Shown: positions 29,196 through 64,000, counted from the stretch's first letter. The stretch is 64,000 nucleotides of DNA from an uncultured Gammaproteobacteria bacterium (GCA_964353785.1 CAYGWK010000003.1:17303-81302), one strand, 5' to 3'. The notes: generated from the letters alone by a model not told the origin. Made by a program: numbers and translations.

Positions 29196-30122
29196 ATGAC
29201 AAAGAAACGCCTAACTGCTTATCTTCTTTTAATCTTAACTTCAATCATTTGGGGAATTGCTGGACCAGTTATTAAGCACACTCTGCAATTTATTCCTCCT
29301 TTTACCTTTTTATTCTGGCGATTTTTGCTTGCCTCGCTGATATTTCTGCCTTTTTTTATCTTTCTGGCCAGAAAAGAAAAAGAAACTCTAAGAAGTCTTT
29401 TACCAATTATCCCCATCGGCTTTTTAGGAATCCCTTTCTGTCTAAGTTTTGTTTTTCTTGGCTTTGAGAGAACTTCTGCTTTGGATGGAACAATTCTTTC
29501 GGCTCTGGCGCCAATTTTTATTGTCTTAGCCGGGGTCTTTTTTTTAAAAGAGAAAGTAACCAGGATTGAGGCGGCTGGTTTGGCGATTGCTATTTCGGGC
29601 TCGGTGGTCATGGTCTCCCAACCGCTTTTGGAGGGAGGGGCATTTGCTCAAAGAAATTTAACTGGTAATCTTTTAATTATAATCTCAGACCTTATTTGGA
29701 CTGTTTATGTTGTTCTTTCAAAAGTTGAATTCAAAAAACACTCCCCTTTTATCATCACCGCTGTCTCCTTTTTTACTGGACTTTTAGTAATTTTTCCCCT
29801 TGCTTTTCTAGAAAGTGGCCCACAAATTTTCAATTTTCAATTCTCAATTCTCAATTCTGGCGCCCTCTGGGGCGTCCTTTACATGGTAATCCTCTCCTCG
29901 GTTCTGGCTTATTTCGCTTTTGAATCGGGACTTAGACTTATCGAGGCTTCGGAAACCACTCTTTTTGCCTATCTTCAGCCAATTTTTGCCGCCCCAGTGG
30001 CCATCCTTTGGCTTGGAGAGCGTATCACTTCTCCATTTTTGCTTGGGGCCGCCATCGTTGCCATCGGAATATTTCTCTCCGAATTCCGCAGACCACGGGT
30101 TGCCTCAAAGCAGGAAAAATGA
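29196..30122 (+). CDS. DMT-superfamily (EamA-like) transporter
   Basis: 308 aa; 10 TM helices in two EamA halves. Contains a 7-bp x ~5 repeat encoding [12 protein letters not shown]. Confidence 0.7.
29823..29858. repeat. 7-bp-period repeat (CAATT(T/C)T x~5) inside the DMT transporter gene
   Basis: Units CAATTTT CAATTTT CAATTCT CAATTCT CAATTCT. Confidence 0.8.
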
Positions 30123-30138
30123 TAGAATAGATTTTGTT

Positions 30139-30456
30139 ATGAAGGCTGATATTCATCCAAAATGGTATCCAGAGGCTCGCGTTACCTGCTCTTGCGGAGC
30201 AAGTTTTACCGTGGGTTCAACCAAGCCTGAAATTCAAGTTGAAATCTGTTCAAAATGCCATCCCCTCTTTACTGGAGAGATGAAATATGTTGATACTGCT
30301 GGAAGAGTAGAAAAATTTCAAGAAAAGCAAAAGAGAGTCCAGCCCCAAAAACTAATTAAGAAAAAGCAAAGAAGGCTTCTTAAAAAACTTGAAGAAGAAA
30401 AAGAGGAAGAAAAACGCCCCAAATCCTTGAAAGAAATGCTACAAAAGAAATCCTAA
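30139..30456 (+). CDS. rpmE: 50S ribosomal protein L31 with ~45-aa K/E-rich C-terminal extension
   Basis: [46 protein letters not shown] closely matches the L31 zinc-ribbon. Extra tail [37 protein letters not shown]. Confidence 0.85.
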
Positions 30457-30457
30457 A

Positions 30458-31141
30458 ATGAATCCAGACAACGCTATTTTAGAAATAAGGCCAGGAACTG
30501 GTGGTGAGGAAGCCCGCCTTTGGGCCTCTGATTTATTGCGGATGTATACCAGGTTTGCTAATTCCCAGGGGTGGAAAGTATCCCAGATTGATGAGGGAGT
30601 GATTAAAATCCAAGGTGCAGGTATTTTTGAAAAATTAAAAAATGAAGCCGGAGTTCACCGAGTCCAAAGAATCCCAAAAACTGAACGCTATGGTCGGATT
30701 CATACCTCAACTGCCACGGTGGCCGTTTTACCAGAAATTCCCGAAAACCAGATTTTTATCAATCCAGCCGATTGCCAGTGGCAATTTTATCGTGCCTCAA
30801 CCCAAGGAGGACAAAATGTTCAGAAGGTCTCCTCTGCCGTCCGCCTGCGCCACGTTCCAACCGGTATTGTCGTCTCAAGTCAGCAAGAACGAACCCAAGA
30901 ACAGAATCGCCAAATCGCTTTGGAGCTACTTCGGGCAAAACTTTTCGCCAGACAGGAAGAAGAAAAAGAGAAAACCGTTGCTGGTTACCGTTCCGTCATT
31001 GGTCGCGGCATGCGCCCCGAAAAAATCCGCACCTACAATTTTCCGCAAAACAGAATTACTGACCACAGAATAAATAAATCGTGGAAGAATTTAGAAGAGA
31101 TTTTAGAGGGGAAATTAGAGAAAATTATTGCCTCTCTCTAG
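30458..31141 (+). CDS. Class I peptide chain release factor homolog lacking N-terminal domain 1 (RF1-type PxT = PKT, GGQ present)
   Basis: 227 aa starting at EIRPGTGGEEA (beginning of RF domain 2). VHRVQRIPKTERYGRIHTSTATVAVLPE matches the RF1 PxT region; GGQNVQKVSSAVRLRHVPTGIVV is the GGQ domain. The 1-nt gap to the L31 stop leaves no room for a domain-1 coding region. Confidence 0.75.
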   Translation: MNPDNAILEIRPGTGGEEARLWASDLLRMYTRFANSQGWKVSQIDEGVIKIQGAGIFEKLKNEAGVHRVQRIPKTERYGRIHTSTATVAVLPEIPENQIFINPADCQWQFYRASTQGGQNVQKVSSAVRLRHVPTGIVVSSQQERTQEQNRQIALELLRAKLFARQEEEKEKTVAGYRSVIGRGMRPEKIRTYNFPQNRITDHRINKSWKNLEEILEGKLEKIIASL

Positions 31142-35892: not shown

Positions 35893-36189
35893 TTAATCAA
35901 CTCTGACCAACAAATATCTTAAAACTTTTTCATTTAGACGCAACTTTTTTCCAATTTCTACCGGAACTTCTTGGGAAAGTTCTAAATTGAAAAGAAAATA
36001 AATTCCTTCTTTAGACTTTTTACCCGCTTTTCTAATCGGGTAAGCCAGTTCCTTTTTTCCCCATTCATCTACCTTCTCAACCTTTCCTTTCGCCTTTTCA
36101 ATCTCCCCTTTTATCTCTTCAACCAATTTCTTCCTTTCATCTTCTTTTAAATCCGGGTCTAAGACTACTGCCATTTCATATTTTCGCAT
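35893..36189 (-). CDS. rpsF: 30S ribosomal protein S6
   Basis: MRKYEMAVVLDPDL...; classic rpsF-ssb-rpsR order. Confidence 0.9.
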   Translation of the reverse strand: MRKYEMAVVLDPDLKEDERKKLVEEIKGEIEKAKGKVEKVDEWGKKELAYPIRKAGKKSKEGIYFLFNLELSQEVPVEIGKKLRLNEKVLRYLLVRVD

Positions 36190-36226
36190 AAAGGAAAGTA
36201 TAACAAATAATTAGAAATTAGTAAAT

Positions 36227-36322
36227 AAGCAGAGCTTGTTGCTTTGCAATAAGCAGAGCTTGTTGCTTTGCAATAAGCAGAGCTTGTTGCTTTGCAATAA
36301 GCAGAGCTTGTTGCTTTGCAAT
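36227..36322. repeat. Perfect 4x tandem array of the 24-nt core (AAGCAGAGCTTGTTGCTTTGCAAT) of the dispersed 27-bp element, in the rpsF 5' leader
   Basis: Four identical head-to-tail copies and no spacers. Each unit can form a GCAGAGC/GCTTTGC 7-bp hairpin with one G.T pair. Followed by a short GTAATTAG-type repeat. Confidence 0.9.
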
Positions 36323-36348
36323 AGTAATTAGTAATTAGGTAGTAATTA

Positions 36349-36505
36349 GGCGGAGAGGTAACAATTTTTGCGCAGGATTTAGGTGGCAAGCCGCGACCCC
36401 ATCGGAACACAACTTGAGTTTCAAGCTGCCCAGTCGCGAGCTGGTCCCGCGTCAAACGCGGGAGCCATCTTTAAATCCAAGCAACAAATTCGTTACCGAA
36501 CCGCC
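36349..36505 (-). ncRNA. Paralog 2 of the unidentified structured RNA-like element
   Basis: Terminal helix GGCGG-AGA-GGTAAC-AATTT / AAATT-C-GTTACC-GAA-CCGCC; internal hairpin CCCGCG-TCAAA-CGCGGG. Starts 12 nt after the ychF stop and sits with the tandem array in the rpsF leader. Confidence 0.5.
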
Positions 36506-45509: not shown

Positions 45510-45848
45510 TCACCGAACACCCCCTTCCCATCCTCCAATCAAATGAACATGCAAATGGAAAACTAGCTGTCCTCCAGCCTTACCAACATTTATCCCAATC
45601 CGGTAACCTTTATCGGCAATTTTTTCTTGCTCAGCCAGTTTTTTCGCCAAGAGAAGCACCTCTCCCAAAAGTTCTCTGTCTTTTTCGTTTGCCTCCGCCA
45701 GACTGGGAATGTGTTTTTTTGGGACAATTAAAATATGAACTGGGGCGATTGGTTTGATGTCTTTGAAGGCAACTAAATTTTCGTCTTGATAAACAAATTT
45801 TGTCGGAATTTCACCGCTTGAGATTTTGCAGAAAATACATTCATCCAT
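45510..45848 (-). CDS. HIT-family (Hint-like) hydrolase
   Basis: 112 aa; CIFCKI N-terminus; histidine triad HLHVHLI. Confidence 0.85.
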   Translation of the reverse strand: MDECIFCKISSGEIPTKFVYQDENLVAFKDIKPIAPVHILIVPKKHIPSLAEANEKDRELLGEVLLLAKKLAEQEKIADKGYRIGINVGKAGGQLVFHLHVHLIGGWEGGVR

Positions 45849-45903
45849 TAAAAATCACAAATTGATTATAATTCTTCTCTGAAAAATTGACAAGAGCCAA
45901 AAA

Positions 45904-55432: not shown

Positions 55433-55993
55433 TTAAAAGCAAGACAAAATTTTCTCGATTTCTTCTTTGAATTTTTCCACAAATTTTTCATCTTTGACTT
55501 GAGAAAGATTTATTCTGACATTTTCCAGGGCTCCATAAATTGCCGCGGTTGCCAGTTCAATTCCGCATCTGGCGTCAGAAACCGCGTTTTGATTTCCTTT
55601 GGCAGCCACAAATGAAGCCAGGCGCAAAACTTCAAGCGATTTTTTGGCCGTTTCCAGCGGAACTTCGGCGGCATTCTTTAGGGCTTCCTGTATCTTCTTG
55701 TTCCTTGTCTCTTGTTGCTCTTCCTCTTCTTTTGGTAATCGATAAGCCTTAACCACTTCATTGTATGCTTGACAATCTTTATCTGAAAGTTCTAATAATT
55801 CACTTCTTAATTTGTCTGCTTTTTGAGTGATTTTTGAAACCTCTAGGTTTTCTTTTGTTAATCTGGCAACTTTTCCAACCAAGGCCGCTCCCATTGCTCC
55901 CGCCAACGCCGCACTTGCTCCTCCGCCAGGTGTCGGCGCCTTTGAAGAAACTTCTTCTAAAAATTTCTTTATTTTTTGCTCTCGAATTATCAT
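55433..55993 (-). CDS. Formiminotetrahydrofolate cyclodeaminase-like protein (FtcD C-terminal domain homolog)
   Basis: Start taken at MIIREQKIKK (ATG 55993). The longer track ORF (to 56155) reads through the RNA-like element. TPGGGASAALAGAMGAAL motif. Confidence 0.7.
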   Translation of the reverse strand: MIIREQKIKKFLEEVSSKAPTPGGGASAALAGAMGAALVGKVARLTKENLEVSKITQKADKLRSELLELSDKDCQAYNEVVKAYRLPKEEEEQQETRNKKIQEALKNAAEVPLETAKKSLEVLRLASFVAAKGNQNAVSDARCGIELATAAIYGALENVRINLSQVKDEKFVEKFKEEIEKILSCF

Positions 55994-56008
55994 ATATTGA
56001 TATATGAT
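55989..56008. promoter_or_regulatory. AT-rich palindrome ATCATATATTGATATATGAT overlapping the cyclodeaminase start codon
   Basis: Differs at one position from the perfect palindrome found upstream of the TrpR-like gene at 12548..12567. Confidence 0.4.
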
Positions 56009-56011
56009 GTC

Positions 56012-56176
56012 AGTAATGGATGGCGAGGGAACAATTTTTGCGCAGGATTTATGTGGCAAGCCGCGACCCAACCGGAACACAACTTGAGTTTCAAATAACC
56101 TAGTCGCGAGCTGGTCCCGCACCAATTTTGGTGCGGGAGCCATCTCTAAATCCAAGCAATAAATTCGTTCCCGAGC
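56012..56176 (-). ncRNA. Paralog 3 of the unidentified structured RNA-like element
   Basis: Terminal helix GGC-GAG-GGAAC-AATTT / AAATT-C-GTTCC-CGA-GCC (compensatory versus paralog 2). Internal hairpin CCCGCACCAA-TT-TTGGTGCGGG is longer than but nested on that of paralog 2. Starts 7 nt after the formiminotransferase stop. Confidence 0.5.
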
Positions 56177-56183
56177 CAGCCTC

Positions 56184-57137
56184 CTAAAGTCTGTTTTCTA
56201 AGACCTGCTCGTTTTTAAAGTCAATTAATTGTAATTCTTCCAAATTTATTCCTCCCAAGGCTTTTTTTGGAACCATGCCATAGATTTCTGAACCCAAAAC
56301 CTTAACTCCTCTTTTCCCCGCTTCCTCTTTAATTTTTCGGAAAACTTTGTCCATATTTGTCTTCTCAAAATCACATAAATTCATGGAAACTTGAACATAG
56401 CCTTTATTGCGGAGCAACAAGCTCTGCTTATCTTTAATTTCAAAACCCAAAGCCTTAATCGCCGGAAAACCGCCATCTTTTTCCCGAACAATTTTGGCTA
56501 AATCTTTGGCAATTTGAACATCTTTGGTATCTAAATTAACATTGTAGGCAATTAAAAATTTCCTCGCCCCCACCACCATTGCTCCGGCTGTGGGATGCAT
56601 TTTTTGCGGACCAAAATCAGGTTTTCTTTCTGGATTTGTCTGGATTTCAGATTTTAGCCCCTCGTACTCGCCTCGTCTGACATCTGCCAAATTAACTCTA
56701 TCAGGTCTGGTGGCGGCCGCCTCATATAGGAAAACTGGAATTTTCAATTCCTGGCCAATTTTTTTTCCTAATCTTTTTGCCAATGCAACACACTCTTCCA
56801 TGGAAACTCCAGAAACTGGAATAAAGGGAACAACATCAGTGGCCCCAATCCGGGGATGCTCACCTTGATGTTTTTCCATATCAATCAAGCGAGTAGCCAC
56901 TTTTATCATTTCCCAAACTGCCTGGAAAACCATCTCTGGTTCACCAACAATTGTGGTTAGCATCCGGTTATGGTCAGGGTCTGACTCAATATCCAAAATC
57001 TTAACCCGCCTAAATATTCCGCCAGAATTTTTGGCGGGTGAACTTTTCCCAGTCCGGGCGGCATCAACAATGGCTTTAATTTTTTCTTTATCTCGTCCCT
57101 CGGAAAAATTTGGAACACACTCAATAATTTTTTCCAT
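56184..57137 (-). CDS. Glutamate formimidoyltransferase (FtcD N-terminal domain homolog), with in-frame KQSLLLRNK insertion
   Basis: 317 aa; ECVPNFSEGRD N-terminus. 27-bp element at 56402..56428. Confidence 0.8.
   Translation of the reverse strand: MEKIIECVPNFSEGRDKEKIKAIVDAARTGKSSPAKNSGGIFRRVKILDIESDPDHNRMLTTIVGEPEMVFQAVWEMIKVATRLIDMEKHQGEHPRIGATDVVPFIPVSGVSMEECVALAKRLGKKIGQELKIPVFLYEAAATRPDRVNLADVRRGEYEGLKSEIQTNPERKPDFGPQKMHPTAGAMVVGARKFLIAYNVNLDTKDVQIAKDLAKIVREKDGGFPAIKALGFEIKDKQSLLLRNKGYVQVSMNLCDFEKTNMDKVFRKIKEEAGKRGVKVLGSEIYGMVPKKALGGINLEELQLIDFKNEQVLENRL
56402..56428 (-). repeat. 27-bp dispersed element (sense on the minus strand), in-frame (KQSLLLRNK) inside the formiminotransferase gene
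   Basis: The minus-strand sequence is AAGCAGAGCTTGTTGCTCCGCAATAAA. Confidence 0.85.
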
Positions 57138-57153
57138 ATTGGGATATTATATA

Positions 57154-57744
57154 TTATTCACCAAACCGAAGCGAACAATCCCCTTGAAGAAGCATTAAAA
57201 GCATAATGCCATAGTTGGCTAAATCCAAAGCGGTATCAGGAATTTTCTCATCTTGGACTTTTCTTTTGTACCGTTTTTTGGAAAGTTGAGTCAGTCTCAA
57301 ATATTTATCACCAATGCGAACAACGAGTCCTGGAATTCCCCAAAAAAGAAAGGCACTGCCGTAATCTGCATTCTTGCGAACAAACGTAAATCGCATCTCC
57401 CGTATTAAGCGCCCCAGCGATTTTTCGTCGGAAATGTTCAAAAGGCGTGGCTGAAAAAAATTAAGGTGAAAGTTAACAGTATTTAAGACCATCAGTTCGG
57501 CAGTTTTCCGAATTTCATTTCGCAGACTCTTTTCGTTTCGTACTTTTTGGGCCTTAACCAGGAGGTTCGCAAGCTCTAAATAATTCTCTCTAACATTTTT
57601 TAAGGGATCATCATGGTTAAAATAAAAAATTTGCTTTTTACTTTCAGAAAAAATCCGCTCGACTATCTCATCCCAACTTTCCCGATTCTTTTTTTGAGAA
57701 ATCTTAATCGTTTTCTTTATTTTCTTCATTTTCTTAGAGTTCAC
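57154..57744 (-). CDS. Hypothetical protein (196 aa) at the end of the nucleotide-salvage cluster
   Basis: Long ORF co-directional with tmk. No motif recognised. Confidence 0.45.
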   Translation of the reverse strand: MNSKKMKKIKKTIKISQKKNRESWDEIVERIFSESKKQIFYFNHDDPLKNVRENYLELANLLVKAQKVRNEKSLRNEIRKTAELMVLNTVNFHLNFFQPRLLNISDEKSLGRLIREMRFTFVRKNADYGSAFLFWGIPGLVVRIGDKYLRLTQLSKKRYKRKVQDEKIPDTALDLANYGIMLLMLLQGDCSLRFGE

Positions 57745-57946
57745 AGATATTGATATCTTCAGGTTTCATTCCTGAGTTCAGCAGCTTGGCTGCTTTTTCT
57801 GCTTTCTCCGGATCATAGAAAAGTTGGTTACGCTCTCTAAAACTAACTATCCGCTCCCCATTATCGGTGTCAATAACGTGAGTATGTGTTTCAGTTTGTC
57901 CCTTTATGTGTCCCACTTGAAATCTCTCTCTTTCAATCTGTTTCAT
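57734..57946 (-). CDS. Hypothetical 70-aa protein
   Basis: Short ORF overlapping its neighbours by 4/11 nt (operon-like). Confidence 0.35.
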   Translation of the reverse strand: MKQIERERFQVGHIKGQTETHTHVIDTDNGERIVSFRERNQLFYDPEKAEKAAKLLNSGMKPEDINICEL

Positions 57947-58578
57947 TTTTTCATCCTCCTAAATTTTGAGTGGTTTTTGATGAGGGATAAAATTTCTTCG
58001 GTTATTTCCTCTTTTTTTCTTTCTCCATCTAAAACGGCAATCTGGGCCCACCAAAATTTTTGGGCTAGCCAATGATAAGTGTCCCAAGTTTGAGTTAAAT
58101 GTTCTTCTTCCTCAAAAAGTTCAACCCCTTTTCTCTCTTGTTTCAGACGCGCAAGGCAGACTTCTGGAGAAACCTCAATAAAAATGGTTAGGTCAGGCAA
58201 AATAAAATCACGATTTAACTCCAAAAGCCATTCTTTGGAAAGATAAACTGAACCAAAGGCAATGGAAGCCCAGGCATAGCGGTCAGTAATAACCATTTTT
58301 CCTTTTTCAAGTTTGGGAATAATTTCTTCATTTAAATGCCTTCCCCTATCGGCAGCAAAAAGTAACTGGACAGAAGCAGGCGGAAGGGAGTTCCATTGAC
58401 CCTCAAGGGCAGAGCGAACCAATTTTCCAATCGGTCCTTTAGTTGGTTCTTTAGTTAAATAGGGCTTGACGCCTTCTTTCTTTAAAACCTTTGCCACCAG
58501 TTTCACTTGAGTGCTTGCTCCTGAACCATCCAGCCCTTCAATATCCACAAAAAATCCCGAAAAATTGTGAATTTTCAT
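57943..58578 (-). CDS. tmk: Thymidylate kinase
   Basis: 211 aa; P-loop FVDIEGLDGSGAST; DRY/LID region. Confidence 0.85.
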   Translation of the reverse strand: MKIHNFSGFFVDIEGLDGSGASTQVKLVAKVLKKEGVKPYLTKEPTKGPIGKLVRSALEGQWNSLPPASVQLLFAADRGRHLNEEIIPKLEKGKMVITDRYAWASIAFGSVYLSKEWLLELNRDFILPDLTIFIEVSPEVCLARLKQERKGVELFEEEEHLTQTWDTYHWLAQKFWWAQIAVLDGERKKEEITEEILSLIKNHSKFRRMKK

Positions 58579-59399
58579 AAAAATCTCTTAACGTTTTCTA
58601 ACAAAATAGGGTCTAAGACATACCTAATTTCTTCCTGCTGACATCGTCTATAAATTTCCAATTCTTGAACTGCCCAACCGACTAAGGCCATCATCTTCCC
58701 TTTTCTGGTAAAAGCATCCTCGAAAGCCCGGCGGGCACTAAGTCTTAAATTCCCAACAATTGAGGTCTCCCACATATCTGCCCTCAGAGGATTTTCAGCG
58801 TCTGAGAAAAAAGGCAAACCTTTTCTTGAAGAAAACTCAATCGTTCTTCTCAAACCTACGTCTCCAGTGGCAAAAAAGGAATCCGCTTCTCGCAAGATTC
58901 TCAATTCGGTAAGAAAACCAAGTTTTGCCACCACTTCCCCTCTTTGTCTAATCTGTTTTTCTCTCAACAACGGTTCTCCTCCTCTTGATTTAAGAGGATA
59001 AGTAAAGGCGGTGTTATCATGCATCCAAATCAGTATTAAAATTCCTGCTTTTTCCCTTTGAGAAAGACCAAAATTCTTATCAATTATTCTTTTGATTATT
59101 TTTACTCCTTCACTCTGGTGTTCAAATTTGTCAAGAGAGTTTCTTTCTCCAGCGGTATAACCAACATCATGACTCAAGGCAGCCAAAGTTAAAACTAGTG
59201 GGTTGATTTTTATTTTTTCTCCTCTTGCTTTTGCTTCCCGACAAGCCATCCCCAAAACTTCAATTGTCCTTTTTTCAACCTCAAGGACATGATTTAGTCC
59301 ATGAACATCCTCGGGAGGGTATAATTTTCCCAATTCTTCCAAAAACATCTTTCTTTCTGGGACTGCCCTATTTAAAACTTGTTCAAATTCAGGACTCAT
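58575..59399 (-). CDS. HD-domain phosphohydrolase (possible 5'-deoxynucleotidase)
   Basis: 274 aa; H...HD motif (LSHDVGY). Confidence 0.6.
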   Translation of the reverse strand: MSPEFEQVLNRAVPERKMFLEELGKLYPPEDVHGLNHVLEVEKRTIEVLGMACREAKARGEKIKINPLVLTLAALSHDVGYTAGERNSLDKFEHQSEGVKIIKRIIDKNFGLSQREKAGILILIWMHDNTAFTYPLKSRGGEPLLREKQIRQRGEVVAKLGFLTELRILREADSFFATGDVGLRRTIEFSSRKGLPFFSDAENPLRADMWETSIVGNLRLSARRAFEDAFTRKGKMMALVGWAVQELEIYRRCQQEEIRYVLDPILLENVKRFL

Positions 59400-61084
59400 G
59401 CCACCTCCGTGGACAAAGACTGCCTAACAAAACCTTCTGGCTGACCAAGACAACTTGGGTGTTCTTGACAACAGACTGGTTCATATTCGCTGTCTCCTGC
59501 CAAAAATGTAACATCGTTATACTGGGCAATTTCTCCAGTTTCAACCTTCACTCTTCTTGTCCCCCTGGCAGGTCGACCGCAATACTTACATCTTGTTCTC
59601 ATTTCAATTTGGTTCCAATTTAAATTATCTAGGGACTTCCCAATCAACTCGTGCATAAAAGTAAAAGGTTCTTCTTGAAAAGTATAATCAATACCATCAA
59701 CGACGATATTGAATCCCTTCATCCGAAGATGCTCAAGATAGAGTATGGCGTCGTCAGCTTCAGTTTTATGAAATAGCATTATTTCGTCAATGAATATAAA
59801 CGGATACTTATTTGGGGCAATGTTTTCTTTTTCGATATAGAGAACAACATCTTTCAGGTTATTACTTTCAATGGTAATCCCTTTAATTTTTCTTCTATCT
59901 CTGGTCATCACGTGGGTCCTTTGCTCTTCACCGTACCTTAAAGCAGCTTCTGGTTGGAGGGAAATTATTTTATTCTCTCCTATTCGTTCTATTTGTTGTT
60001 CAAGTTCCAAGAAAACAGTCGTTTTACCCGTGAACATACTTTTACTATGAACAATCATCACTTGCCCTTTTTCTTTTTCGGCAAAGACTGCCATAATTCT
60101 ATCGGCAACCTCTTTAGGCTGAGGATTGAGCAAATCTTTAAGAAGACCAAGCTCCCCTCGTATTTTATAGATTTCTCTGTATCTTATCGAAGGATTTTTA
60201 TAAGTTTCAATTGGGTCGATAACAATCGGTAAAACTTTAACCTGCCATTCTTGAGGCAACCTCTCAATAAGTTCTTTGATTAAGCGCGTCTCCATATCTA
60301 AATCGTCCACAGTGAACACTCTTTCACTTTCTCGATGGGGCTGGTCTTTGAGACGCTCCCTTACCCCAAAGTATAAATTCTCAACTTTATCAGGCAGAAG
60401 AGCAACCAGAAGAGTTGGTCTTAGAATAAGAGGTTTAAAAAGTTCAACCGTTTGTCTGTATACCTTATATTCTTCTTCGGATAATTTTCCCATCGACTTA
60501 TACCATGGAACCCATTGCTCAATATCAGTTATAGGACACATCTCAGAGACCCCAATTCCTTTTCTTACCATGGTTCCCAAACCAAGACTTATGTTTGTTG
60601 ATAGAAAATAAATTTGGGAGCGAAGCATAAAGCAAGAATCTTCTTGTGATTTTGCCCAAAATGGATTTTCCTCGTAAGGGTCTTTTAAAAATAACTCCGC
60701 GTTCAAATCTTCAGCTAAAACACGAGCGATTGTGCTTTTTCCCACCCCTAGCGGTCCAATAAACTCAATTCTCACCATATCTTTCTGTTCTAGCATGGTA
60801 GCGACAGCGCCATGAATCGGTGATAGATTATGTTTAACAGCAAAAAGTTCCAATGTTTTCCAAAAAAGAACTTTTTCTTCCAAGGAAAAGCTTTTACTCA
60901 AAAGTTTTTTTGTCAATTCTTCTCTTTGGGAAAGTAAAAAATGCTCCTTTTCTTTAGCTGAAAAACCAGATAAATTTTCCTCTGATTGGAAAAGTCTACC
61001 AATATAATCTTTATAGGCTTCCAGAAAACGAATTCTTTCTTCTTCAGGAGAAATTAAATTTTCCCCTCTTCGTTCTAAAGTCAT
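59396..61084 (-). CDS. Fusion protein: deoxynucleoside kinase (dNK family) + thymidine kinase (TK1 type, Zn-ribbon)
   Basis: N-terminal half has the dNK P-loop IEFIGPLGVGKSTIARVLAEDL. C-terminal half has the TK1 P-loop MIVHSKSMFTGKTT plus the TK1 zinc ribbon CKYCGRPARGTRRV...CCQEH. Confidence 0.7.
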   Translation of the reverse strand: MTLERRGENLISPEEERIRFLEAYKDYIGRLFQSEENLSGFSAKEKEHFLLSQREELTKKLLSKSFSLEEKVLFWKTLELFAVKHNLSPIHGAVATMLEQKDMVRIEFIGPLGVGKSTIARVLAEDLNAELFLKDPYEENPFWAKSQEDSCFMLRSQIYFLSTNISLGLGTMVRKGIGVSEMCPITDIEQWVPWYKSMGKLSEEEYKVYRQTVELFKPLILRPTLLVALLPDKVENLYFGVRERLKDQPHRESERVFTVDDLDMETRLIKELIERLPQEWQVKVLPIVIDPIETYKNPSIRYREIYKIRGELGLLKDLLNPQPKEVADRIMAVFAEKEKGQVMIVHSKSMFTGKTTVFLELEQQIERIGENKIISLQPEAALRYGEEQRTHVMTRDRRKIKGITIESNNLKDVVLYIEKENIAPNKYPFIFIDEIMLFHKTEADDAILYLEHLRMKGFNIVVDGIDYTFQEEPFTFMHELIGKSLDNLNWNQIEMRTRCKYCGRPARGTRRVKVETGEIAQYNDVTFLAGDSEYEPVCCQEHPSCLGQPEGFVRQSLSTEVA

Positions 61085-61139
61085 ACCTGCCCTCTTTTCA
61101 CAAATACCACTAATTTAGAAGTTCGTCAACTAGCAAAAA

Positions 61140-62654
61140 CTAGGTCAAATTATCTAACCAACGTTCTTCTTGAAGAAACGGCCATCCTTTTTTTAAAGCC
61201 ATTTCCGCCCAGCCCAAATGAATTCCTATCTCCAAGGCATGAGAAATCTGACTGATGGCATCGGCCCTCGCGATTAACTGAACTAGTTCATGGGCAGTTC
61301 TACCTCTAAACTCCTGAAGAATCTTCCCTGACCCGTCGGGTGGGACTAACCTAGCTACTATTTCTCCCTTTTCGAGGCTAAGCAAGAAATTACCTCTAGG
61401 GTCCCATCCCTCCTTGGTCTTTCCTTTATGTTGTTTTACCAAGTATTCTGCTATTTCTCTGGCACTTTGATAAATATGAGTCCTGGTTGAAAAGGTAATT
61501 AACGAACCCATGGTCAGGTCTTTATATTTAGTCTTAACTCTTTCTAAAATGAGGTTTTGGATTCGCCTTAAACCAAAGGCATTCCAGGGCCAAGCATTAG
61601 CCATGTCATTTGAGCGAAAAATTCCGGTTAAGAAAAGTTTATCTTGCTCAATTGAAGCCTGAAAAGCATAGAGACATGGGTTGCGCAAGGCCTTATTGTC
61701 TTTGTTGGGATCATACAAAACCGCAATTGCTCCTCTATCATTTGGGTCTTTTAAAAGTTTGCCCACTACTGCCTCAAACTGGTTGATTTTTTGGGGTCCA
61801 AAAGCGAAAATCCTCTCCCCATAGGTATACCATTCTCCTTTGGGTAATTCTTGGGTCAAAAAGTTTTTTTGAATATAGTCCTCAACTTGAGATTTGGTGA
61901 ACGGTAATATTTGCCAGCTAGTCTTGTCTTCAACCTCTCGATCAGTGATGGTAATAATGTTTAAAACGTCCTCTGCTTCCTGACCATAGTTAGTCATGGC
62001 TGAGGGACCGAAACGTAAAATCTTTTCTAAGATTTGAACGTAGGCTTCGGCTATTGTTGGTGTAATCACCAGCTCGGCCCCTACCTTCCGGGGAAATTTT
62101 TCTCTCCCCACTTCAGGCAAAGGCAACAAAACGGCCTCGCTCTGTGGACCCTTATAGGGGGATTTGCTGATTGTCTCCTGAATTTTTACCGGATCAACAA
62201 CTCCCCGAAGATCAACAAGGGCAATATTTTCTCTGAATTTATCAATTTCCTCAAACGGAATTGTGTCTGAGATTTTTGCTCCTTCAGGCCCGCCTGTTAT
62301 GTTCCTCTTCTGATCAACTCCATTTTCCACTAAATTCATCAATGCTTGACCCCCAACGCCTTCTTTCATTTCCCTCCCACAAACCACTAGATATCTTATC
62401 GCCCTATTGGAAGCACAGGTTCGGATGATACCATCTATGCCGGCCCCAGAGGTTTTTAGCTGACCGATCGCGGCAATTTTTTTCTGATCGAGTTCTGGCC
62501 AGATAGTATCAACAGGAGTCCAGAGAGTAACAACTCCTACACAAGCATCTGGGTTGCCAACCCGAAGCTCAGGTACTTCCCCGCCCATAAAATAAGGAGG
62601 CCAATTTTCAATCCGGACTCGCCTTTCACTCGATAGTCTTTCCTGTCTACTCAT
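61140..62654 (-). CDS. Thymidylate synthase (ThyA-fold) domain flanked by a ~200-aa N-terminal and a ~75-aa C-terminal domain of unknown function
   Basis: The middle region aligns by eye to the ThyA core: ...NPCLYAFQ... (P-C-H-like catalytic Cys) and ...FRSNDMANAWPWNAFG... (R-S-x-D ... N, so dUMP-type specificity). The N-terminal 200 aa are neither DHFR- nor ThyX-like. Confidence 0.6.
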   Translation of the reverse strand: MSRQERLSSERRVRIENWPPYFMGGEVPELRVGNPDACVGVVTLWTPVDTIWPELDQKKIAAIGQLKTSGAGIDGIIRTCASNRAIRYLVVCGREMKEGVGGQALMNLVENGVDQKRNITGGPEGAKISDTIPFEEIDKFRENIALVDLRGVVDPVKIQETISKSPYKGPQSEAVLLPLPEVGREKFPRKVGAELVITPTIAEAYVQILEKILRFGPSAMTNYGQEAEDVLNIITITDREVEDKTSWQILPFTKSQVEDYIQKNFLTQELPKGEWYTYGERIFAFGPQKINQFEAVVGKLLKDPNDRGAIAVLYDPNKDNKALRNPCLYAFQASIEQDKLFLTGIFRSNDMANAWPWNAFGLRRIQNLILERVKTKYKDLTMGSLITFSTRTHIYQSAREIAEYLVKQHKGKTKEGWDPRGNFLLSLEKGEIVARLVPPDGSGKILQEFRGRTAHELVQLIARADAISQISHALEIGIHLGWAEMALKKGWPFLQEERWLDNLT

Positions 62655-63465
62655 TTTTAATTTTTGCTATCTGAACCTTACTTTTCTGCAAAAGGAGCAG
62701 TCCTTTTCTATCATAATACTCCTTGTCAAACACAACTCTTTTTATCCCTGCCTCAATAATTTCTTTAGCGCATTCTTCGCAGGGGCAACTAGTAACATAA
62801 AGAGAGGCACCATCTAAAGAGATTCCTTTCCGCGCTGCTCGGGCTATTCCTATTTTTTCGGAGTGGATCCCATCACAAAAAGAAATTTTTTCTCCTGGAG
62901 CTAAAAAAATGTCTGCTGGTCTTATAGGCAACTCCTTGCAATTTGTTTGCCAAGGAGTGAAGCAAGCACCGGTCATAATTACTTCTTCATTTAACACAAA
63001 CACGCAGGCTGTCGGTCGCCACCAGCAGGTACTTTCAGACAAAAGCCTCTGGGCTTCTAACATAAATTGGCGGTCTAAAGGATCGGAAGTTTGCTTAACC
63101 TCAACCTCCTCAGCAAATACTTCTGTTGGGGGTAAAAGTTTCTTCTTTGACAAGATAACTTCTCCAAATTGCTCTACTTGACCAAATTCGCCAGCCACCA
63201 ACTGTTCTAGTTCCTGTTCAGAACAAGCAAACACCGCCTCCACCCCCTCCATTGATGCCAGAATTTGGGCTTTGGCCAGACCCCGGCTACCCGGCGTCAA
63301 TTCTTGATTCGCCATAACGATTATTGTTCCTGGCTTCTCCTTAATGATCCTGGACAAGTAAGTTAAATTCCGACAGCGGATTGCCTCCTCACCCAAAAGA
63401 ACAATTTGGGCGGAGCGTAATTTTTCTGGAGGCAGTTGGTAGAATGGTCTTATTCTCTCAACCAT
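62647..63465 (-). CDS. dCMP deaminase (cytidine/deoxycytidylate deaminase zinc-binding domain) fused to an unknown ~130-aa N-terminal domain
   Basis: C-terminal HSE...SCPCEECAKE (H-x-E / PC-x-x-C zinc site). The N-terminal Rossmann-like segment is unassigned. Confidence 0.65.
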   Translation of the reverse strand: MVERIRPFYQLPPEKLRSAQIVLLGEEAIRCRNLTYLSRIIKEKPGTIIVMANQELTPGSRGLAKAQILASMEGVEAVFACSEQELEQLVAGEFGQVEQFGEVILSKKKLLPPTEVFAEEVEVKQTSDPLDRQFMLEAQRLLSESTCWWRPTACVFVLNEEVIMTGACFTPWQTNCKELPIRPADIFLAPGEKISFCDGIHSEKIGIARAARKGISLDGASLYVTSCPCEECAKEIIEAGIKRVVFDKEYYDRKGLLLLQKSKVQIAKIKNE

Positions 63466-63931
63466 TTCTTTTCCGTAAAAGTCTGGCTAGTTCTTCCGGA
63501 GCAAGTTTAACCTCTTGATAATGCCAAGTAACCAAGCCTTTAACAAAGGGCATAATCTGCCAATGAAGGTGTTTAACTGTTTTTCCAGTTTGTTTTCCCT
63601 CGCGAAGCAAAAACCAAACACTATCGATATCTAATACCTCCCGCAACAATTTAAGGCTCTTTTTCGCTAAACGGTGATAAGCCATTATCTCATTTTCGCT
63701 TAAATCAAGATAGTTTTCTATATGTCTTTTAGGAATCACCAGTAGATGCCCATCAATATAAGGAAAAAGATTGGTGGTTAAAACCAAACCAGAGTCCTCG
63801 GCGACAATGTATTTTTCTTTCAAATCACAAAAAACACATTTACCCACGTTTTTGGCAATCTCATCATATTTTCCTTTTGTCCTGGCACTTAATTGCCATT
63901 TTTTATTGAAAAAATCTTTCTTTTTTTTCAC
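63458..63931 (-). CDS. HIT-family hydrolase (second paralog)
   Basis: 157 aa; CVFCDL N-terminus; HLHWQIMP histidine triad. Confidence 0.7.
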   Translation of the reverse strand: MKKKKDFFNKKWQLSARTKGKYDEIAKNVGKCVFCDLKEKYIVAEDSGLVLTTNLFPYIDGHLLVIPKRHIENYLDLSENEIMAYHRLAKKSLKLLREVLDIDSVWFLLREGKQTGKTVKHLHWQIMPFVKGLVTWHYQEVKLAPEELARLLRKRNG

Positions 63932-64000
63932 CGGTTTGTCCTTTCAAAGCCAGTCAGCATTTTCTCTAATTTTCTGAATAATTTTGGACGTCGAGACCAT

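What the first reader, a model, noticed from the sequence alone, without database searches (positions are those of the whole stretch)
57154..63931. Compact pyrimidine deoxynucleotide salvage / thymidylate island with unusual fusion enzymes, adjacent to split FtcD folate genes
Eight co-directional minus-strand genes: HIT hydrolase; dCMP deaminase fused to an unknown N-terminal domain; a ThyA-fold thymidylate synthase-like core embedded between ~200-aa N-terminal and ~75-aa C-terminal domains of unknown function; a deoxynucleoside kinase fused to a TK1-type thymidine kinase; an HD phosphohydrolase; tmk; and two hypotheticals. Immediately downstream sit the formiminotransferase and cyclodeaminase halves of FtcD, which supply one-carbon folate. 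Together this is a complete dC/dT to dTDP route built from non-canonical fusion proteins. The extra domains on the ThyA-like and dCMP-deaminase proteins are not DHFR-like. ThyA homologs with accessory domains are also the entry enzymes of pyrimidine hypermodification pathways (dUMP/dCMP hydroxymethylases), so a modified-base pathway cannot be excluded.
Basis: partly seen in the sequence, partly recalled or inferred. Interest (0 to 1): 0.6.

Follow-up and report, generated by a model that had tools for sequence, protein, structure and literature searches.

The report
Thymidylate operon with three-domain ThyA
This is a housekeeping operon for making thymidine nucleotides in a tiny-genome (CPR-type) bacterium; its thymidylate synthase has an unusual three-domain build that is widespread in poorly known microbes, and I found no experimental study of it.

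Summary
The eight co-directional minus-strand genes are real and packed like an operon. It is a pyrimidine deoxynucleotide / thymidylate island next to folate genes.

The "unknown" domains on the ThyA-like protein are recognisable: an MtrA-like Rossmann domain at the N-terminus and a PterinBD-DUF4346 domain at the C-terminus, around a short archaeal-type ThyA core. This fusion is a large family, found in at least 417 species genomes (CPR, DPANN, Chloroflexales, Thaumarchaeota and others).

In CPR genomes it sits in a conserved operon: ATP-cone/cytidylyltransferase-like, HIT, dCMP deaminase, TS, Tmk. SHMT+FolD often follow, DHFR abuts it once, and one member is fused to Tmk.

The nucleotide-side catalytic residues, including the uracil-specifying Asn, are conserved. 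The MtrA cobalt ligands His84 and Glu54 are absent in all 53 members examined.

Best reading: a genuine folate-dependent dUMP-to-dTMP synthase whose flanking domains probably handle the pterin cofactor. Hypermodification is unlikely.

The dNK–TK1 and HD genes are a lineage-specific insertion. The deaminase N-domain is a rare Rossmann-like domain of unknown role. One "hypothetical" carries DUF1599, which also accompanies ThyX in viruses.

The operon is ordinary. The TS architecture is an uncharacterised variant worth biochemical study.

The parts
63944..64000 (-). 3' end (last 18 codons plus the stop codon) of the first operon gene, an ATP-cone + cytidylyltransferase-like protein of 261 aa. The rest lies beyond the window end.
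   Evidence: L001 is the same contig and maps exactly onto the window. Pfam gives ATP-cone at 4.7e-17 and CTP_transf_like at 3.9e-14. The gene is conserved upstream of HIT in L086-L088 and in 15 of 26 CPR loci.
63458..63931 (-). HIT-family protein of 157 aa with motif H121-L-H-W-Q (HxHxQ).
   Evidence: PF01230 at 1.1e-14; motif found. HIT lies next to the TS fusion in 21 of 83 loci.
62647..63465 (-). dCMP deaminase of 272 aa. A lineage-restricted Rossmann-like N-domain (aa 1-130, window 63076-63465) is fused to a zinc deaminase domain (aa 131-270) with H201-S-E and P228-C-E-E-C.
   Evidence: PF00383 at 2.9e-16; motifs. The N-domain family has only about 11 representative clusters, almost all about 270 aa. 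The AF2 model has pLDDT 77.5 and a beta-alpha alternation. There is no significant fold or sequence match.
61140..62654 (-). Three-domain thymidylate synthase of 504 aa.
62145..62609 (-). MtrA-like Rossmann domain (aa 16-170) lacking the cobalt ligand His84 and its partner Glu54.
   Evidence: PF04208 at 4.3e-22. PDB 5laa, 8q3v and 5l8x match at 1e-18 to 1e-14. No family member has His at position 84 (0 of 53), and Glu54 is Lys in 30 of 53. The residue roles come from PMC4915002.
61425..62069 (-). Short archaeal-type ThyA catalytic core (aa 196-410) with Y278, R307, C327, R347, S348, D350, N358, H393 and Y395.
   Evidence: TIGR03283 at 1.1e-37 covers profile positions 3-196 of 201. PF00303 at 6.8e-14. 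Foldseek matches to ThyA and MilA at about 1e-12. Residue mapping.
61167..61403 (-). PterinBD-DUF4346 domain (aa 418-496), topology beta-beta-beta-alpha-alpha, with a conserved D-P-R-G-N start.
   Evidence: PF14251 at 7.3e-11. Secondary structure, conservation. Other DUF4346 proteins are named dihydropteroate synthase(-like), MtrA or thymidylate synthase by their sources.
59396..61084 (-). Fusion kinase of 562 aa: an unknown N-terminal ~100 aa, a dNK-type deoxynucleoside kinase (P-loop G110-PLGVGKS), and a TK1-type thymidine kinase (aa ~336-542, with CKYC at 499).
   Evidence: PF00265 at 2.7e-15 and PF01712 at 3.8e-06; motifs. It is absent from relatives L086 and L087, where Tmk follows the TS gene directly.
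58575..59399 (-). HD-domain phosphohydrolase of 274 aa.
   Evidence: PF01966 at 4.1e-05, 24.3 bits against a cut-off of 22. Weak PDB hits to HD proteins 3dto and 2qgs. HD motif at aa 77.
57943..58578 (-). Thymidylate kinase of 211 aa with an atypical P-loop, GSGAST (no Walker-A Lys).
   Evidence: PF02223 at 1.5e-41. TIGR00041 scores 146 bits, above its cut-off of 83. P-loop comparison.
57734..57946 (-). 70-aa ORF without database matches. It overlaps both neighbours by 4 and 11 nt.
   Evidence: No homologue in the 83 other loci.
57154..57744 (-). 196-aa protein with a Lys-rich N-terminus and a DUF1599 ('nucleotide modification associated domain 1') at aa 124-184.
   Evidence: PF07659 at 1e-06; phrog_1485 at 4.5e-18. 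The same domain occurs in a dUTPase-ThyX-DUF1599 block of Asgard viruses.
56184..57137 (-). Glutamate formiminotransferase (FtcD N-terminal half).
   Evidence: FTCD_N at 9.3e-74 and FTCD at 3.1e-22.
55433..56155 (-). Formiminotetrahydrofolate cyclodeaminase (FtcD C-terminal half). The Pfam match starts at aa 61, so the true start is probably the ATG at about 55993.
   Evidence: FTCD_C at 1.2e-60, aa 61-234; sequence.

Best explanation
The region is the downstream two-thirds of a housekeeping operon. It supplies thymidine nucleotides to a small-genome, CPR/Patescibacteria-like bacterium that depends on salvage.

Inferred flow:
1. Deoxycytidine and thymidine are phosphorylated by the dNK-TK1 fusion kinase.
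2. dCMP is deaminated to dUMP by the zinc deaminase.
3. dUMP is methylated to dTMP by the three-domain ThyA-type synthase, using 5,10-methylene-tetrahydrofolate.
4. Tmk makes dTDP.
5. The adjacent formiminotransferase and cyclodeaminase feed the folate one-carbon pool. Other CPR genomes have SHMT and FolD at that position.

The synthase works like ThyA on the nucleotide side. It has the Cys327 nucleophile, Arg347/Ser348 for the phosphate and Asn358 for uracil. It lacks the canonical folate-contact elements (Trp80, Trp83 and the C-terminal tail).

I infer that the MtrA-like N-domain and the DUF4346 C-domain replace these elements and hold or position the pterin cofactor. The MtrA-like domain has lost the cobalt-ligating His/Glu pair. 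A methyl-cobalamin mechanism like that of MtrA is therefore not expected.

Shown: the domain composition, residue conservation, gene linkage and family distribution. Inferred: the substrates, the folate dependence and the role of the flanking domains.
For: - Domains.
- Structure: the AF2 model has pLDDT 90 and pTM 0.84, with ThyA-fold matches at E of about 1e-12 to 1e-13.
- Catalytic residues across 53 family members: Y94 in 52, C146 in 52, R166 in 52, S167 in 51, D169 in 50, N177 in 52.
- Gene linkage across 83 loci: dCMP deaminase 29, Tmk 22, HIT 21, CTP_transf_like 21, dUTPase/DCD 13, SHMT 6, FolD 4.
- SHMT+FolD lie downstream of the TS operon, before rpsB-tsf, in L003, and directly after the TS gene in L019 and L034.
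- A bona fide DHFR (PF00186, 2.7e-45) abuts the TS gene in L022.
- P0022 is the same fusion with Tmk added.
- The conserved operon order holds in close relatives L086-L088.
- The rest of the window is housekeeping.
- His84 is absent in all 53 members and Glu54 is mostly Lys, against the residue roles given in PMC4915002.
- DUF4346 recurs in proteins that sources name dihydropteroate synthase(-like), MtrA or TS.
Against: - No member of the fusion family has been characterised, as far as the searchable literature shows.
- The ThyA core scores below the trusted cut-offs of all equivalog models: TIGR03283 gives 129.5 bits against 174.55.
- Its best model is the methanogen type, whose cofactor (folate or methanopterin) is itself unresolved (PMC9012536).
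- Fold comparison cannot separate methylase from hydroxymethylase chemistry.
- The alignment to E. coli ThyA is unreliable in the N-terminal third, so the loss of R21, E58 and W80 is not firmly established.
- The island's Tmk lacks the Walker-A lysine.
- The role proposed for the flanking domains rests on domain association only. I could not inspect the inter-domain contacts of the model.
- DHFR adjacency was seen in only 1 of 83 loci.
Confidence: 0.7

Rival explanations
1. Self-sufficient or differently cofactored synthase. The MtrA-like and DUF4346 domains add a second chemical function. This could be re-reduction of the dihydropterin product (a non-homologous counterpart of DHFR in DHFR-TS), or use of a one-carbon carrier other than folate. 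Either way the enzyme would not depend on FolA.
For: - DUF4346 is attached to enzymes that make or use dihydropterins and pterins: DHPS-like proteins, MtrA-like proteins and ThyA.
- The MtrA-like domain is a Rossmann-type cofactor-binding fold with a strongly conserved loop (G64, L66 and G72 invariant).
- The N-domain/TS order mimics DHFR-TS.
- Many thyA-positive lineages lack folA (PMC11974145).
- No DHFR is present in this 64-kb window.
Against: - A canonical DHFR abuts the fusion gene in L022.
- CPR genomes are reported to commonly carry folA (PMC11974145).
- There is no detectable similarity to any reductase. The long Foldseek alignments to DHFR-TS have rmsd of about 21 A and TM of about 0.32.
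- No redox-cofactor motif was identified.
- 64 kb is too little sequence to infer that folA is absent from the genome.
Confidence: 0.15
2. Entry enzyme of a modified-pyrimidine pathway. The ThyA-like protein would hydroxymethylate dUMP. The extra kinases, the HD hydrolase and the DUF1599 protein would process the modified nucleotide for incorporation into DNA.
For: - ThyA-fold hydroxymethylases score as well as thymidylate synthases in fold searches: MilA 5jnh at 8e-13 and T4-type gp42 at 1.4e-11.
- The Trp80/Trp83 counterparts that shield the methylene intermediate are not detectable.
- DUF1599 is named 'nucleotide modification associated domain 1'.
- The island has extra kinases and an atypical Tmk.
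Against: - The same fusion is the TS-like gene of at least 417 cellular genomes, in housekeeping contexts next to ribosomal genes.
- It is linked to Tmk, dUTPase, SHMT, FolD and DHFR, and once fused to Tmk.
- There are no glycosyltransferase, DNA-kinase, glycosylase or phage genes in the window.
- The methanogen-type ThyA core also lacks those Trp residues.
- DUF1599 accompanies ThyX in a block read as plain dTMP synthesis.
- The kinase and HD genes are a recent insertion absent from close relatives.
Confidence: 0.05
3. Corrinoid-dependent methyl transfer. The MtrA-like domain would bind a cobamide and deliver a methyl group to dUMP, with DUF4346 binding methyl-pterin, by analogy with the Mtr complex.
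For: - There is significant sequence similarity to the cobalamin-binding domain of MtrA: PF04208 at 4e-22, and PDB 5laa at about 1e-18.
- The loop corresponding to the cobalamin-site loop of MtrA is highly conserved in the fusion family.
Against: - No member has the cobalt ligand His84 (0 of 53).
- Glu54 is replaced, mostly by Lys.
- The GAIPF/Y-x-EN motif is not kept (residue roles from PMC4915002).
- The complete ThyA covalent-catalysis set, including Asp169, which contacts the pterin in ThyA, is retained.
- CPR bacteria are not known to make corrinoids (own knowledge).
Confidence: 0.03

Closest known systems
Methanogen/archaeal-type short thymidylate synthase (NCBIfam TIGR03283, thy_syn_methano)
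   Same: It is the best-scoring model for the catalytic core (1.1e-37), covering profile positions 3-196 of 201. Both are short ThyA cores without the canonical N-terminal and C-terminal folate-contact elements.
   Different: The score of 129.5 bits is below the family cut-off of 174.55. The window protein is embedded between an MtrA-like domain and a DUF4346 domain, and it comes from a bacterium whose neighbouring genes are folate genes, not methanopterin genes.
Canonical ThyA (E. coli, B. subtilis; PF00303)
   Same: The fold is shared (Foldseek E of about 1e-12). The nucleophile Cys, Arg166, Ser167, Asp169, Asn177 and Tyr94 are conserved, and His207 and Tyr209 mostly so.
   Different: Identity is only about 18%. 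Only profile positions 94-224 of 266 match in Pfam. No counterpart of Trp80, Trp83 or the C-terminal tail was found, Arg127 is mostly Gly, and there are two extra domains.
Bifunctional DHFR-TS of protozoa and plants
   Same: Both have an N-terminal alpha/beta cofactor-binding domain followed by a TS domain in one chain of about 500 aa. This is an analogy of layout only.
   Different: The N-domain is MtrA-like, not DHFR (no PF00186 hit). The structural superposition over the full length is meaningless, with rmsd of about 21 A. There is an additional C-terminal DUF4346.
MtrA, corrinoid subunit of methyl-H4MPT:CoM methyltransferase (PDB 5laa, 5l8x, 8q3v)
   Same: The N-domain aligns over about 155 residues at E of about 1e-18 and shares the Rossmann-like fold family.
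   Different: It lacks His84, Glu54 and the GAIPF/Y-x-EN motif. It has no membrane anchor, it is not in an mtr operon, and it is fused to ThyA.
dUTPase-ThyX-DUF1599 block of Asgard archaeal viruses (bioRxiv 10.1101/2021.07.29.453957)
   Same: A DUF1599 protein is encoded together with a thymidylate synthase and dUMP-supplying enzymes.
   Different: There the synthase is the flavin-dependent ThyX and the context is viral. Here it is ThyA-type and chromosomal.
Phage dCMP/dUMP hydroxymethylase-based hypermodification clusters (T4 gp42 type)
   Same: They use a ThyA-fold enzyme plus nucleotide kinases, and the fold-search scores are similar.
   Different: Asn, not Asp, sits at the base-specificity position. 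The context is cellular housekeeping, with no glycosyltransferases or DNA-level modification enzymes.

Membership tests
ThyA / thymidylate synthase superfamily (PF00303) | Pfam gathering score reached | tested here: met
   52.1 bits against a cut-off of 24.3, but only profile positions 94-224 of 266 match.
ThyA / thymidylate synthase superfamily (PF00303) | ThyA fold | tested here: met
   AF2 model with pLDDT 90. Foldseek probability 1.00 and E of about 1e-12 to 1e-13 to many ThyA and MilA structures, with about 225-260 aligned columns.
ThyA / thymidylate synthase superfamily (PF00303) | Catalytic Cys146 nucleophile with Arg166, Ser167, Asp169 and Tyr94 | tested here: met
   C327, R347, S348, D350 and Y278 in the window protein, conserved in 50-52 of 53 family members.
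ThyA / thymidylate synthase superfamily (PF00303) | Asn177 (uracil) rather than Asp (cytosine) at the base-specificity position | tested here: met
   N358 in the window protein; Asn in 52 of 53 members. The meaning of Asn versus Asp is from established ThyA and dCMP-hydroxymethylase knowledge.
ThyA / thymidylate synthase superfamily (PF00303) | Canonical folate-contact elements (Trp80, Trp83, C-terminal carboxylate tail) | tested here: not met
   No aligned counterparts, and the C-terminus continues into DUF4346. The alignment in this region is of low reliability.
ThyA / thymidylate synthase superfamily (PF00303) | dUMP + CH2-H4folate -> dTMP + H2folate activity | not testable with these tools
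   Needs an enzyme assay or complementation.
Methanogen-type thymidylate synthase (TIGR03283 equivalog) | Score above the curated cut-off | tested here: not met
   129.5 bits against 174.55. It is the best model but below threshold.
MtrA (corrinoid-binding subunit; PF04208 / TIGR01111) | Pfam gathering score reached | tested here: met
   79 bits against a cut-off of 25. PDB 5laa matches at about 1e-18.
MtrA (corrinoid-binding subunit; PF04208 / TIGR01111) | His84 lower axial cobalt ligand, hydrogen-bonded to Glu54 (PMC4915002) | tested here: not met
   His is present in 0 of 53 members. The Glu54 position is Ser in the window protein and Lys in 30 of 53 members.
MtrA (corrinoid-binding subunit; PF04208 / TIGR01111) | Conserved GAIPF/Y-x-EN meander motif | tested here: not met
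   Only the Ala is partly kept (23 of 53).
MtrA (corrinoid-binding subunit; PF04208 / TIGR01111) | Equivalog score; membrane anchor; mtr operon context | tested here: not met
   TIGR01111 gives 77.4 bits against 249.15. The domain is followed by ThyA, not a transmembrane helix, and there are no mtr genes in the window.
Bifunctional DHFR-TS | DHFR domain (PF00186) N-terminal to TS | tested here: not met
   No DHFR hit. Full-length Foldseek alignments have rmsd of about 21 A and TM of about 0.32.
dCMP hydroxymethylase (T4 gp42 type) | Asp at the position of ThyA Asn177; phage context | tested here: not met
   Asn358. The context is a chromosomal housekeeping one.
dUMP hydroxymethylase (hypermodification entry enzyme) | Hydration instead of hydride transfer to the exocyclic methylene intermediate | not testable with these tools
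   I know of no sequence signature that decides this, and fold scores do not discriminate.
dCMP deaminase (zinc-dependent, ComEB/Dctd type) | H(A/S)E and PCxxC zinc/catalytic motifs and the Pfam score | tested here: met
   H201-S-E and P228-C-E-E-C. PF00383 gives 59.7 bits against a cut-off of 25. The equivalog TIGR02571 is below its cut-off, 54 against 219.
Thymidylate kinase (TIGR00041) | Equivalog score | tested here: met
   146.2 bits against a cut-off of 83.25.
Thymidylate kinase (TIGR00041) | Walker-A GxxGxGK[ST] lysine | tested here: not met
   The window has GLDGSGAST. Relatives L086 and L003 also lack the Lys, while 19 other neighbouring Tmk proteins keep it.
TK1-type thymidine kinase (PF00265) | Pfam score, P-loop GKT and zinc-ribbon cysteines | tested here: met
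   57.1 bits against a cut-off of 20.6, aa 347-540. The sequence has ...MFTGKTT... and CKYC at 499, plus a later CC..H.
Cytidylyltransferase-like / HUP nucleotidyltransferase fold (for the deaminase N-domain) | Sequence or profile similarity and the HxGH motif | tested here: not met
   No Pfam hit. hhalign probability is 0.3%, and there is no HxGH motif. Foldseek gives only weak hints: TagD 1coz at probability 0.93, E = 0.059 and TM 0.42-0.44, among generic Rossmann hits.

The most novel reading that the evidence does not exclude
The MtrA-like and DUF4346 domains would give this widespread thymidylate synthase a second, so far unknown cofactor function. This could be built-in regeneration or channelling of the reduced pterin (a non-homologous analogue of DHFR-TS), or use of a non-folate one-carbon carrier. 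That could help explain how some thyA-positive, folA-negative microbes make thymidylate.
Probability: 0.15. Interest if true: 0.8.

Novelty: new variant of a known kind. Interest (0 to 1): 0.5.

Why it matters
Thymidylate synthesis is essential and is a classic drug target. Only two enzyme families, ThyA and ThyX, are known, and the cofactor handling of archaeal-type ThyA is still unresolved (PMC9012536, PMC9931769).

This window shows a third recurrent layout: an MtrA-like domain, a short ThyA core and DUF4346. It is the thymidylate synthase candidate in hundreds of CPR, DPANN, Chloroflexales and Thaumarchaeota genomes, and I found no description of it in the searchable literature.

Working out what the two extra domains do would have three benefits:
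1. It would assign a function to DUF4346 and to the non-corrinoid branch of the MtrA fold.
2. It would clarify folate dependence in ultra-small symbionts.
3. It could bear on the 'ThyA without FolA' puzzle.

The conserved but unexplained partners are further leads into nucleotide salvage in these organisms. They are the ATP-cone/cytidylyltransferase-like protein, the HxHxQ HIT protein, and a Tmk without the Walker-A lysine.

The island as a whole is ordinary housekeeping. It is not evidence for modified DNA.

Tried and rejected
1. Cobalamin-dependent mechanism for the MtrA-like domain. Rejected because His84, Glu54 and the conserved motif are absent in all 53 members.
2. My own by-eye idea that the deaminase N-domain is a degenerate cytidylyltransferase. 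It is not supported by Pfam, a PDB profile search or hhalign (probability 0.3%). Foldseek gives only weak, non-significant HUP-class hints among generic Rossmann hits. It is left as 'Rossmann-like, unknown'.
3. The N-domain of the equally long deaminase in L002 is not detectably related to the window's N-domain.
4. Long Foldseek alignments to DHFR-TS. Discarded, with rmsd of about 21 A and TM of about 0.32.
5. A viral structure search to separate synthase from hydroxymethylase. Not discriminating.
6. PDB sequence searches for the DUF1599 and HD proteins. Nothing useful, or only weak hits.
7. Promoter and terminator scans. At chance level.
8. Rfam scan of the window. No hits.
9. Literature searches for DUF4346, MtrA + thymidylate synthase, and MtrA + corrinoid + TS. 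Nothing relevant.
11. The word-indexed search with the deaminase N-domain found one relative only. The exhaustive search found 11.
12. The minus-strand coordinates printed were in reverse-complement numbering. This was corrected and the counts are unaffected.

Full report
**Observation**

They are packed like an operon, with junctions of -8, -8, +55, -4, -4, -4 and -11 nt. The formiminotransferase gene follows after +16 nt and the cyclodeaminase ORF after +28 nt.

Pfam and NCBIfam identify the following proteins:

| Window coordinates | Protein |
|---|---|
| 63458-63931 | HIT protein |
| 62647-63465 | 272-aa protein; aa 131-246 are a dCMP/cytidine deaminase domain, aa 1-130 match nothing |
| 61140-62654 | 504-aa ThyA-like protein |
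| 59396-61084 | 562-aa dNK + TK1 fusion |
| 58575-59399 | HD protein (weak hit) |
| 57943-58578 | Tmk |
| 57734-57946 | 70-aa ORF with no match |
| 57154-57744 | 196-aa protein with DUF1599, 'nucleotide modification associated domain 1' |
| 56184-57137 | FTCD_N + FTCD |
| 55433-56155 | FTCD_C |

After the FtcD genes come rpsB, a short tsf, frr and rseP.

The rest of the window is housekeeping: ProRS, a CofD-family protein, DnaX, RecR, CysRS, YchF, two PDZ proteases, RF2, an EamA transporter and HisRS. There is one tRNA-Leu and no Rfam hit.

The GC content of about 40%, the 154-aa EF-Ts and the closest relatives of the genes point to a CPR/Patescibacteria-type bacterium.

**The ThyA-like protein is a three-domain fusion, not a core with unknown flanks**

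- Residues 16-170 match MtrA (PF04208, 4e-22; PDB 5laa, 8q3v and 5l8x at 1e-18 to 1e-14).
- Residues 196-397 match the methanogen-type short thymidylate synthase TIGR03283 over nearly its whole length (1.1e-37). The score of 129.5 bits is below the trusted cut-off of 174.55.
- Residues 418-496 match PterinBD-DUF4346 (7e-11).

An AlphaFold2 model built on a 53-sequence family alignment is confident, with mean pLDDT 90 and pTM 0.84. Foldseek returns ThyA and CMP-hydroxymethylase structures at E of about 1e-12 to 1e-13 over about 225-260 columns. The longer alignments to DHFR-TS have rmsd of about 21 A and carry no information about the flanks.

**Catalytic residues**

Mapped on E. coli ThyA (reference sequence and numbering from my own knowledge), the nucleotide-side machinery is conserved in the window protein and across 53 family members:

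| E. coli ThyA residue | Window residue | Conserved (of 53) |
|---|---|---|
| Tyr94 | Y278 | 52 |
| Arg126 | R307 | 50 as Arg or Lys |
| Cys146 | C327 | 52 |
| Arg166 | R347 | 52 |
| Ser167 | S348 | 51 |
| Asp169 | D350 | 50 |
| Asn177 | N358 | 52 |
| His207 | H393 | 35 |
| Tyr209 | Y395 | 40 |

Asn at position 177 is the uracil-specifying residue. dCMP hydroxymethylases have Asp there (established knowledge).

I found no counterparts of Trp80, Trp83 or the C-terminal tail that closes over the folate. The alignment is weak in that part of the protein.

**The MtrA-like domain**

For MtrA, the structure paper (PMC4915002) defines His84 as the lower cobalt ligand, Glu54 as its hydrogen-bond partner and GAIPF/Y-x-EN as the conserved motif.

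In the fusion family His84 is absent in all 53 members, Glu54 is mostly Lys, and the motif is not kept. The corresponding loop, GQLYTKxGIN, is nevertheless highly conserved, with invariant G64, L66, G72 and W45.

The domain therefore very probably still binds something, but not a His-ligated cobamide.

**Distribution**

- A word-indexed search found 79 full-length relatives at 26-90% identity, all with the same architecture. One of them (P0022) has Tmk added at the C-terminus.
- A scan of one genome per species found 417 genomes with a relative. They include Woese-, Pace-, Micr-, Aenigm- and Nanoarchaeota, and many CPR lineages (Kerfeld-, Falkow-, Shapiro-, Buchanan- and Abawacabacteria, WWE3 and 'Saccharibacteria'). 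They also include Chloroflexales such as the cultured Ca. Oscillochloris fontis, as well as Thaumarchaeota, Nitrospinota and Acidobacteriota.
- Databases label these proteins 'thymidylate synthase', 'DUF4346 domain-containing protein' or 'hypothetical'.
- I found no paper in the searchable library that mentions DUF4346 or an MtrA-thymidylate synthase fusion.
- Two recent papers state that archaeal ThyA biochemistry and cofactor specificity are essentially unstudied (PMC9012536; PMC9931769).

**Gene neighbourhood**

Counts within +/-8 kb of the fusion gene, across 83 independent loci:

| Neighbour | Loci (of 83) |
|---|---|
| dCMP deaminase | 29 |
| Tmk | 22 |
| HIT | 21 |
| Cytidylyltransferase-like | 21 |
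| dUTPase/DCD | 13 |
| Small P-loop kinase | 9 |
| SHMT | 6 |
| FolD | 4 |
| DHFR | 1 |

- The linkage is concentrated in CPR. The deaminase is present in 19 of 26 CPR loci, and HIT and CTP_transf_like in 15 of 26 each. It is absent in Chloroflexota, where the gene stands alone.
- Close relatives of the window (L086-L088, with 43-66% TS identity) show the order topA | ATP-cone+CTP_transf_like - HIT - deaminase (260-276 aa) - TS, followed by Tmk or a TK1 protein.
- The same first gene lies just beyond the window end. Its last 18 codons and stop are at 63944-64000.
- In L003, SHMT and FolD lie downstream of the TS operon and precede rpsB-tsf. That is the position occupied here by the two FtcD halves. 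In L019 and L034 SHMT and FolD follow the TS gene directly.
- In L022 a canonical DHFR (PF00186, 2.7e-45) abuts the 3' end of the TS gene.

Five observations together argue that the enzyme makes dTMP with a folate one-carbon donor:
1. The dUMP-supplying enzymes lie upstream.
2. Tmk lies downstream.
3. Folate one-carbon enzymes and a DHFR lie alongside.
4. One family member is a TS-Tmk fusion.
5. The specificity residue is Asn, which specifies uracil.

**Lineage-specific parts of the island**

- The dNK-TK1 fusion, HD, the 70-aa ORF, DUF1599 and the FtcD genes were found next to the TS gene in none of the other 83 loci.
- In L086 and L087 a Tmk 61-66% identical to the window's follows the TS gene directly. 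The dNK-TK1 + HD pair is therefore an insertion specific to the window's lineage.
- The kinase fusion has an intact dNK P-loop (G110-PLGVGKS), a TK1 P-loop (MFTGKTT) and zinc-ribbon cysteines.
- The deaminase has its H-S-E and PCEEC motifs.
- DUF1599 hits phrog_1485 (4.5e-18). In Asgard viruses it forms a dUTPase-ThyX-DUF1599 block that the authors interpret as thymidylate synthesis. It accompanies both kinds of synthase and is not specific evidence for hypermodified bases.

**The deaminase N-domain**

- An exhaustive HMMER search of 1.84 billion representatives found only 11 related clusters. Almost all are about 270 aa long with the same N-domain + deaminase layout.
- The family has an invariant Cys31 and a G59-x4-A64-K65-A66 motif.
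- A profile search of PDB sequences and hhalign against a cytidylyltransferase-like neighbour were negative.
- An AF2 model (pLDDT 77.5, with the core at 80-90) shows an alternating beta/alpha Rossmann-like fold.
- Foldseek finds nothing significant. The best E is 0.035, and the hits are generic Rossmann folds, including HUP-class enzymes such as TagD (probability 0.93, TM 0.42-0.44) and short-chain dehydrogenases.
- Its role is unknown. Because dCMP deaminases are classically regulated by dCTP and dTTP, a nucleotide-binding regulatory or oligomerisation role is my guess, not a result.

**Mechanism**

Most likely (about 0.7), the operon works as follows. dC and dT are phosphorylated by the dNK-TK1 fusion. 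dCMP is deaminated to dUMP. dUMP is methylated by the fusion synthase with CH2-H4folate. Tmk then gives dTDP. FtcD (or SHMT and FolD elsewhere) feeds the folate pool.

I infer that the MtrA-like and DUF4346 domains replace the missing folate-contact elements and hold the pterin cofactor. The grounds for this inference are:
- DUF4346 recurs on proteins that sources name dihydropteroate synthase(-like), MtrA and thymidylate synthase.
- From my own knowledge of TIGR00284, DUF4346 also forms the C-terminal part of the archaeal DHPS-related protein.

This step is inference. I could not inspect the inter-domain contacts of the model.

**Rivals**

| Rival | Probability | Main points |
|---|---|---|
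| A second cofactor function, such as built-in dihydropterin recycling or another one-carbon carrier | about 0.15 | Attractive because many thyA-positive lineages lack folA. Weakened by the DHFR neighbour in L022 and by the reported commonness of folA in CPR. |
| A dUMP hydroxymethylase feeding a modified-base pathway | about 0.05 | See the rival explanation for the evidence on both sides. |
| A corrinoid-dependent methyl transfer | about 0.03 | Contradicted by the lost ligands. |

**Verdict**

The island is an ordinary, conserved housekeeping operon of CPR bacteria with a lineage-specific kinase/HD insertion. It is not evidence for DNA hypermodification.

Its thymidylate synthase belongs to a widespread three-domain variant that, as far as the literature I could search shows, has not been characterised experimentally. 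That variant is the part worth following up.

Noticed in passing
window 57943-58578 (-); also L086 8889-9521 and L003 12253-12900: The island's Tmk has GSGAST where the Walker-A motif normally reads GxGK[ST]T, so the P-loop lysine is missing. Two relatives share this (GSGSST and GSGSDK). The 19 other Tmk proteins next to the fusion TS keep the Lys. The protein still scores above the dTMP-kinase equivalog cut-off.
   Followed up: partly
window 63944-64000 (-) and beyond; L001 486-1271; L086-L088; L003 7179-9416: The operon starts with an ATP-cone + cytidylyltransferase-like protein (HFGH motif, an RfaE-domain-II/TagD-like sequence). It is followed by a HIT protein with an HxHxQ motif. The pair is conserved upstream of dCMP deaminase + TS in 15 of 26 CPR loci, and in L003 it is fused to an APH-type kinase (745 aa). 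Its role in deoxynucleotide metabolism is unexplained.
   Followed up: partly
L022 9413-9892 (-): A canonical DHFR (PF00186, 2.7e-45) lies 3 bp from the end of the fusion TS gene in an archaeal-labelled MAG. It is the only DHFR found in 83 loci.
   Followed up: yes
P0022 (746 aa): A four-domain protein, MtrA-like + ThyA + DUF4346 + thymidylate kinase. As a 'Rosetta-stone' fusion it links the synthase to dTMP phosphorylation.
   Followed up: yes
window 36168-36470 (-): A short ORF of about 100 aa is similar to the cyclodeaminase (FTCD_C-like) protein of the island (phmmer 3.7e-14). It has no Pfam hit at E <= 1e-3. It may be a fragment or a diverged paralogue.
   Followed up: partly
window 45513-45854 (-): A second, canonical small HIT/Hint-type protein of 114 aa (PF01230, 2e-28). 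It is distinct from the HxHxQ HIT protein of the operon.
   Followed up: partly
window 30458-31141 (+), with 29920-30456 (+): The release-factor ORF matches PCRF only from profile position 100 onward. An adjacent ORF in another frame ends 2 nt before it starts. This looks like the usual programmed +1 frameshift of prfB (RF2).
   Followed up: no
window 55433-56155 (-): The cyclodeaminase ORF as listed starts at a TTG, but the Pfam match begins at aa 61. An in-frame ATG at about 55993 (sequence MIIREQK...) is the more likely start. That would leave about 190 nt between the two FtcD genes.
   Followed up: partly
L005 (archaeal contig with P0042): In a DPANN-like archaeon the fusion TS sits among eIF-1A, Topo VI and tRNA-intron endonuclease genes. 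It is near a form III RuBisCO / AMP phosphorylase / R15P isomerase set, which is the archaeal nucleotide-salvage AMP pathway.
   Followed up: no
L002 6300-7121: Another CPR genome has an equally long (273 aa) dCMP deaminase. Its N-terminal 135 aa are unrelated to the window's N-domain and give a weak TIR-like hit (PF10137, 0.0036). Different N-terminal add-ons to the deaminase appear to have arisen independently.
   Followed up: partly
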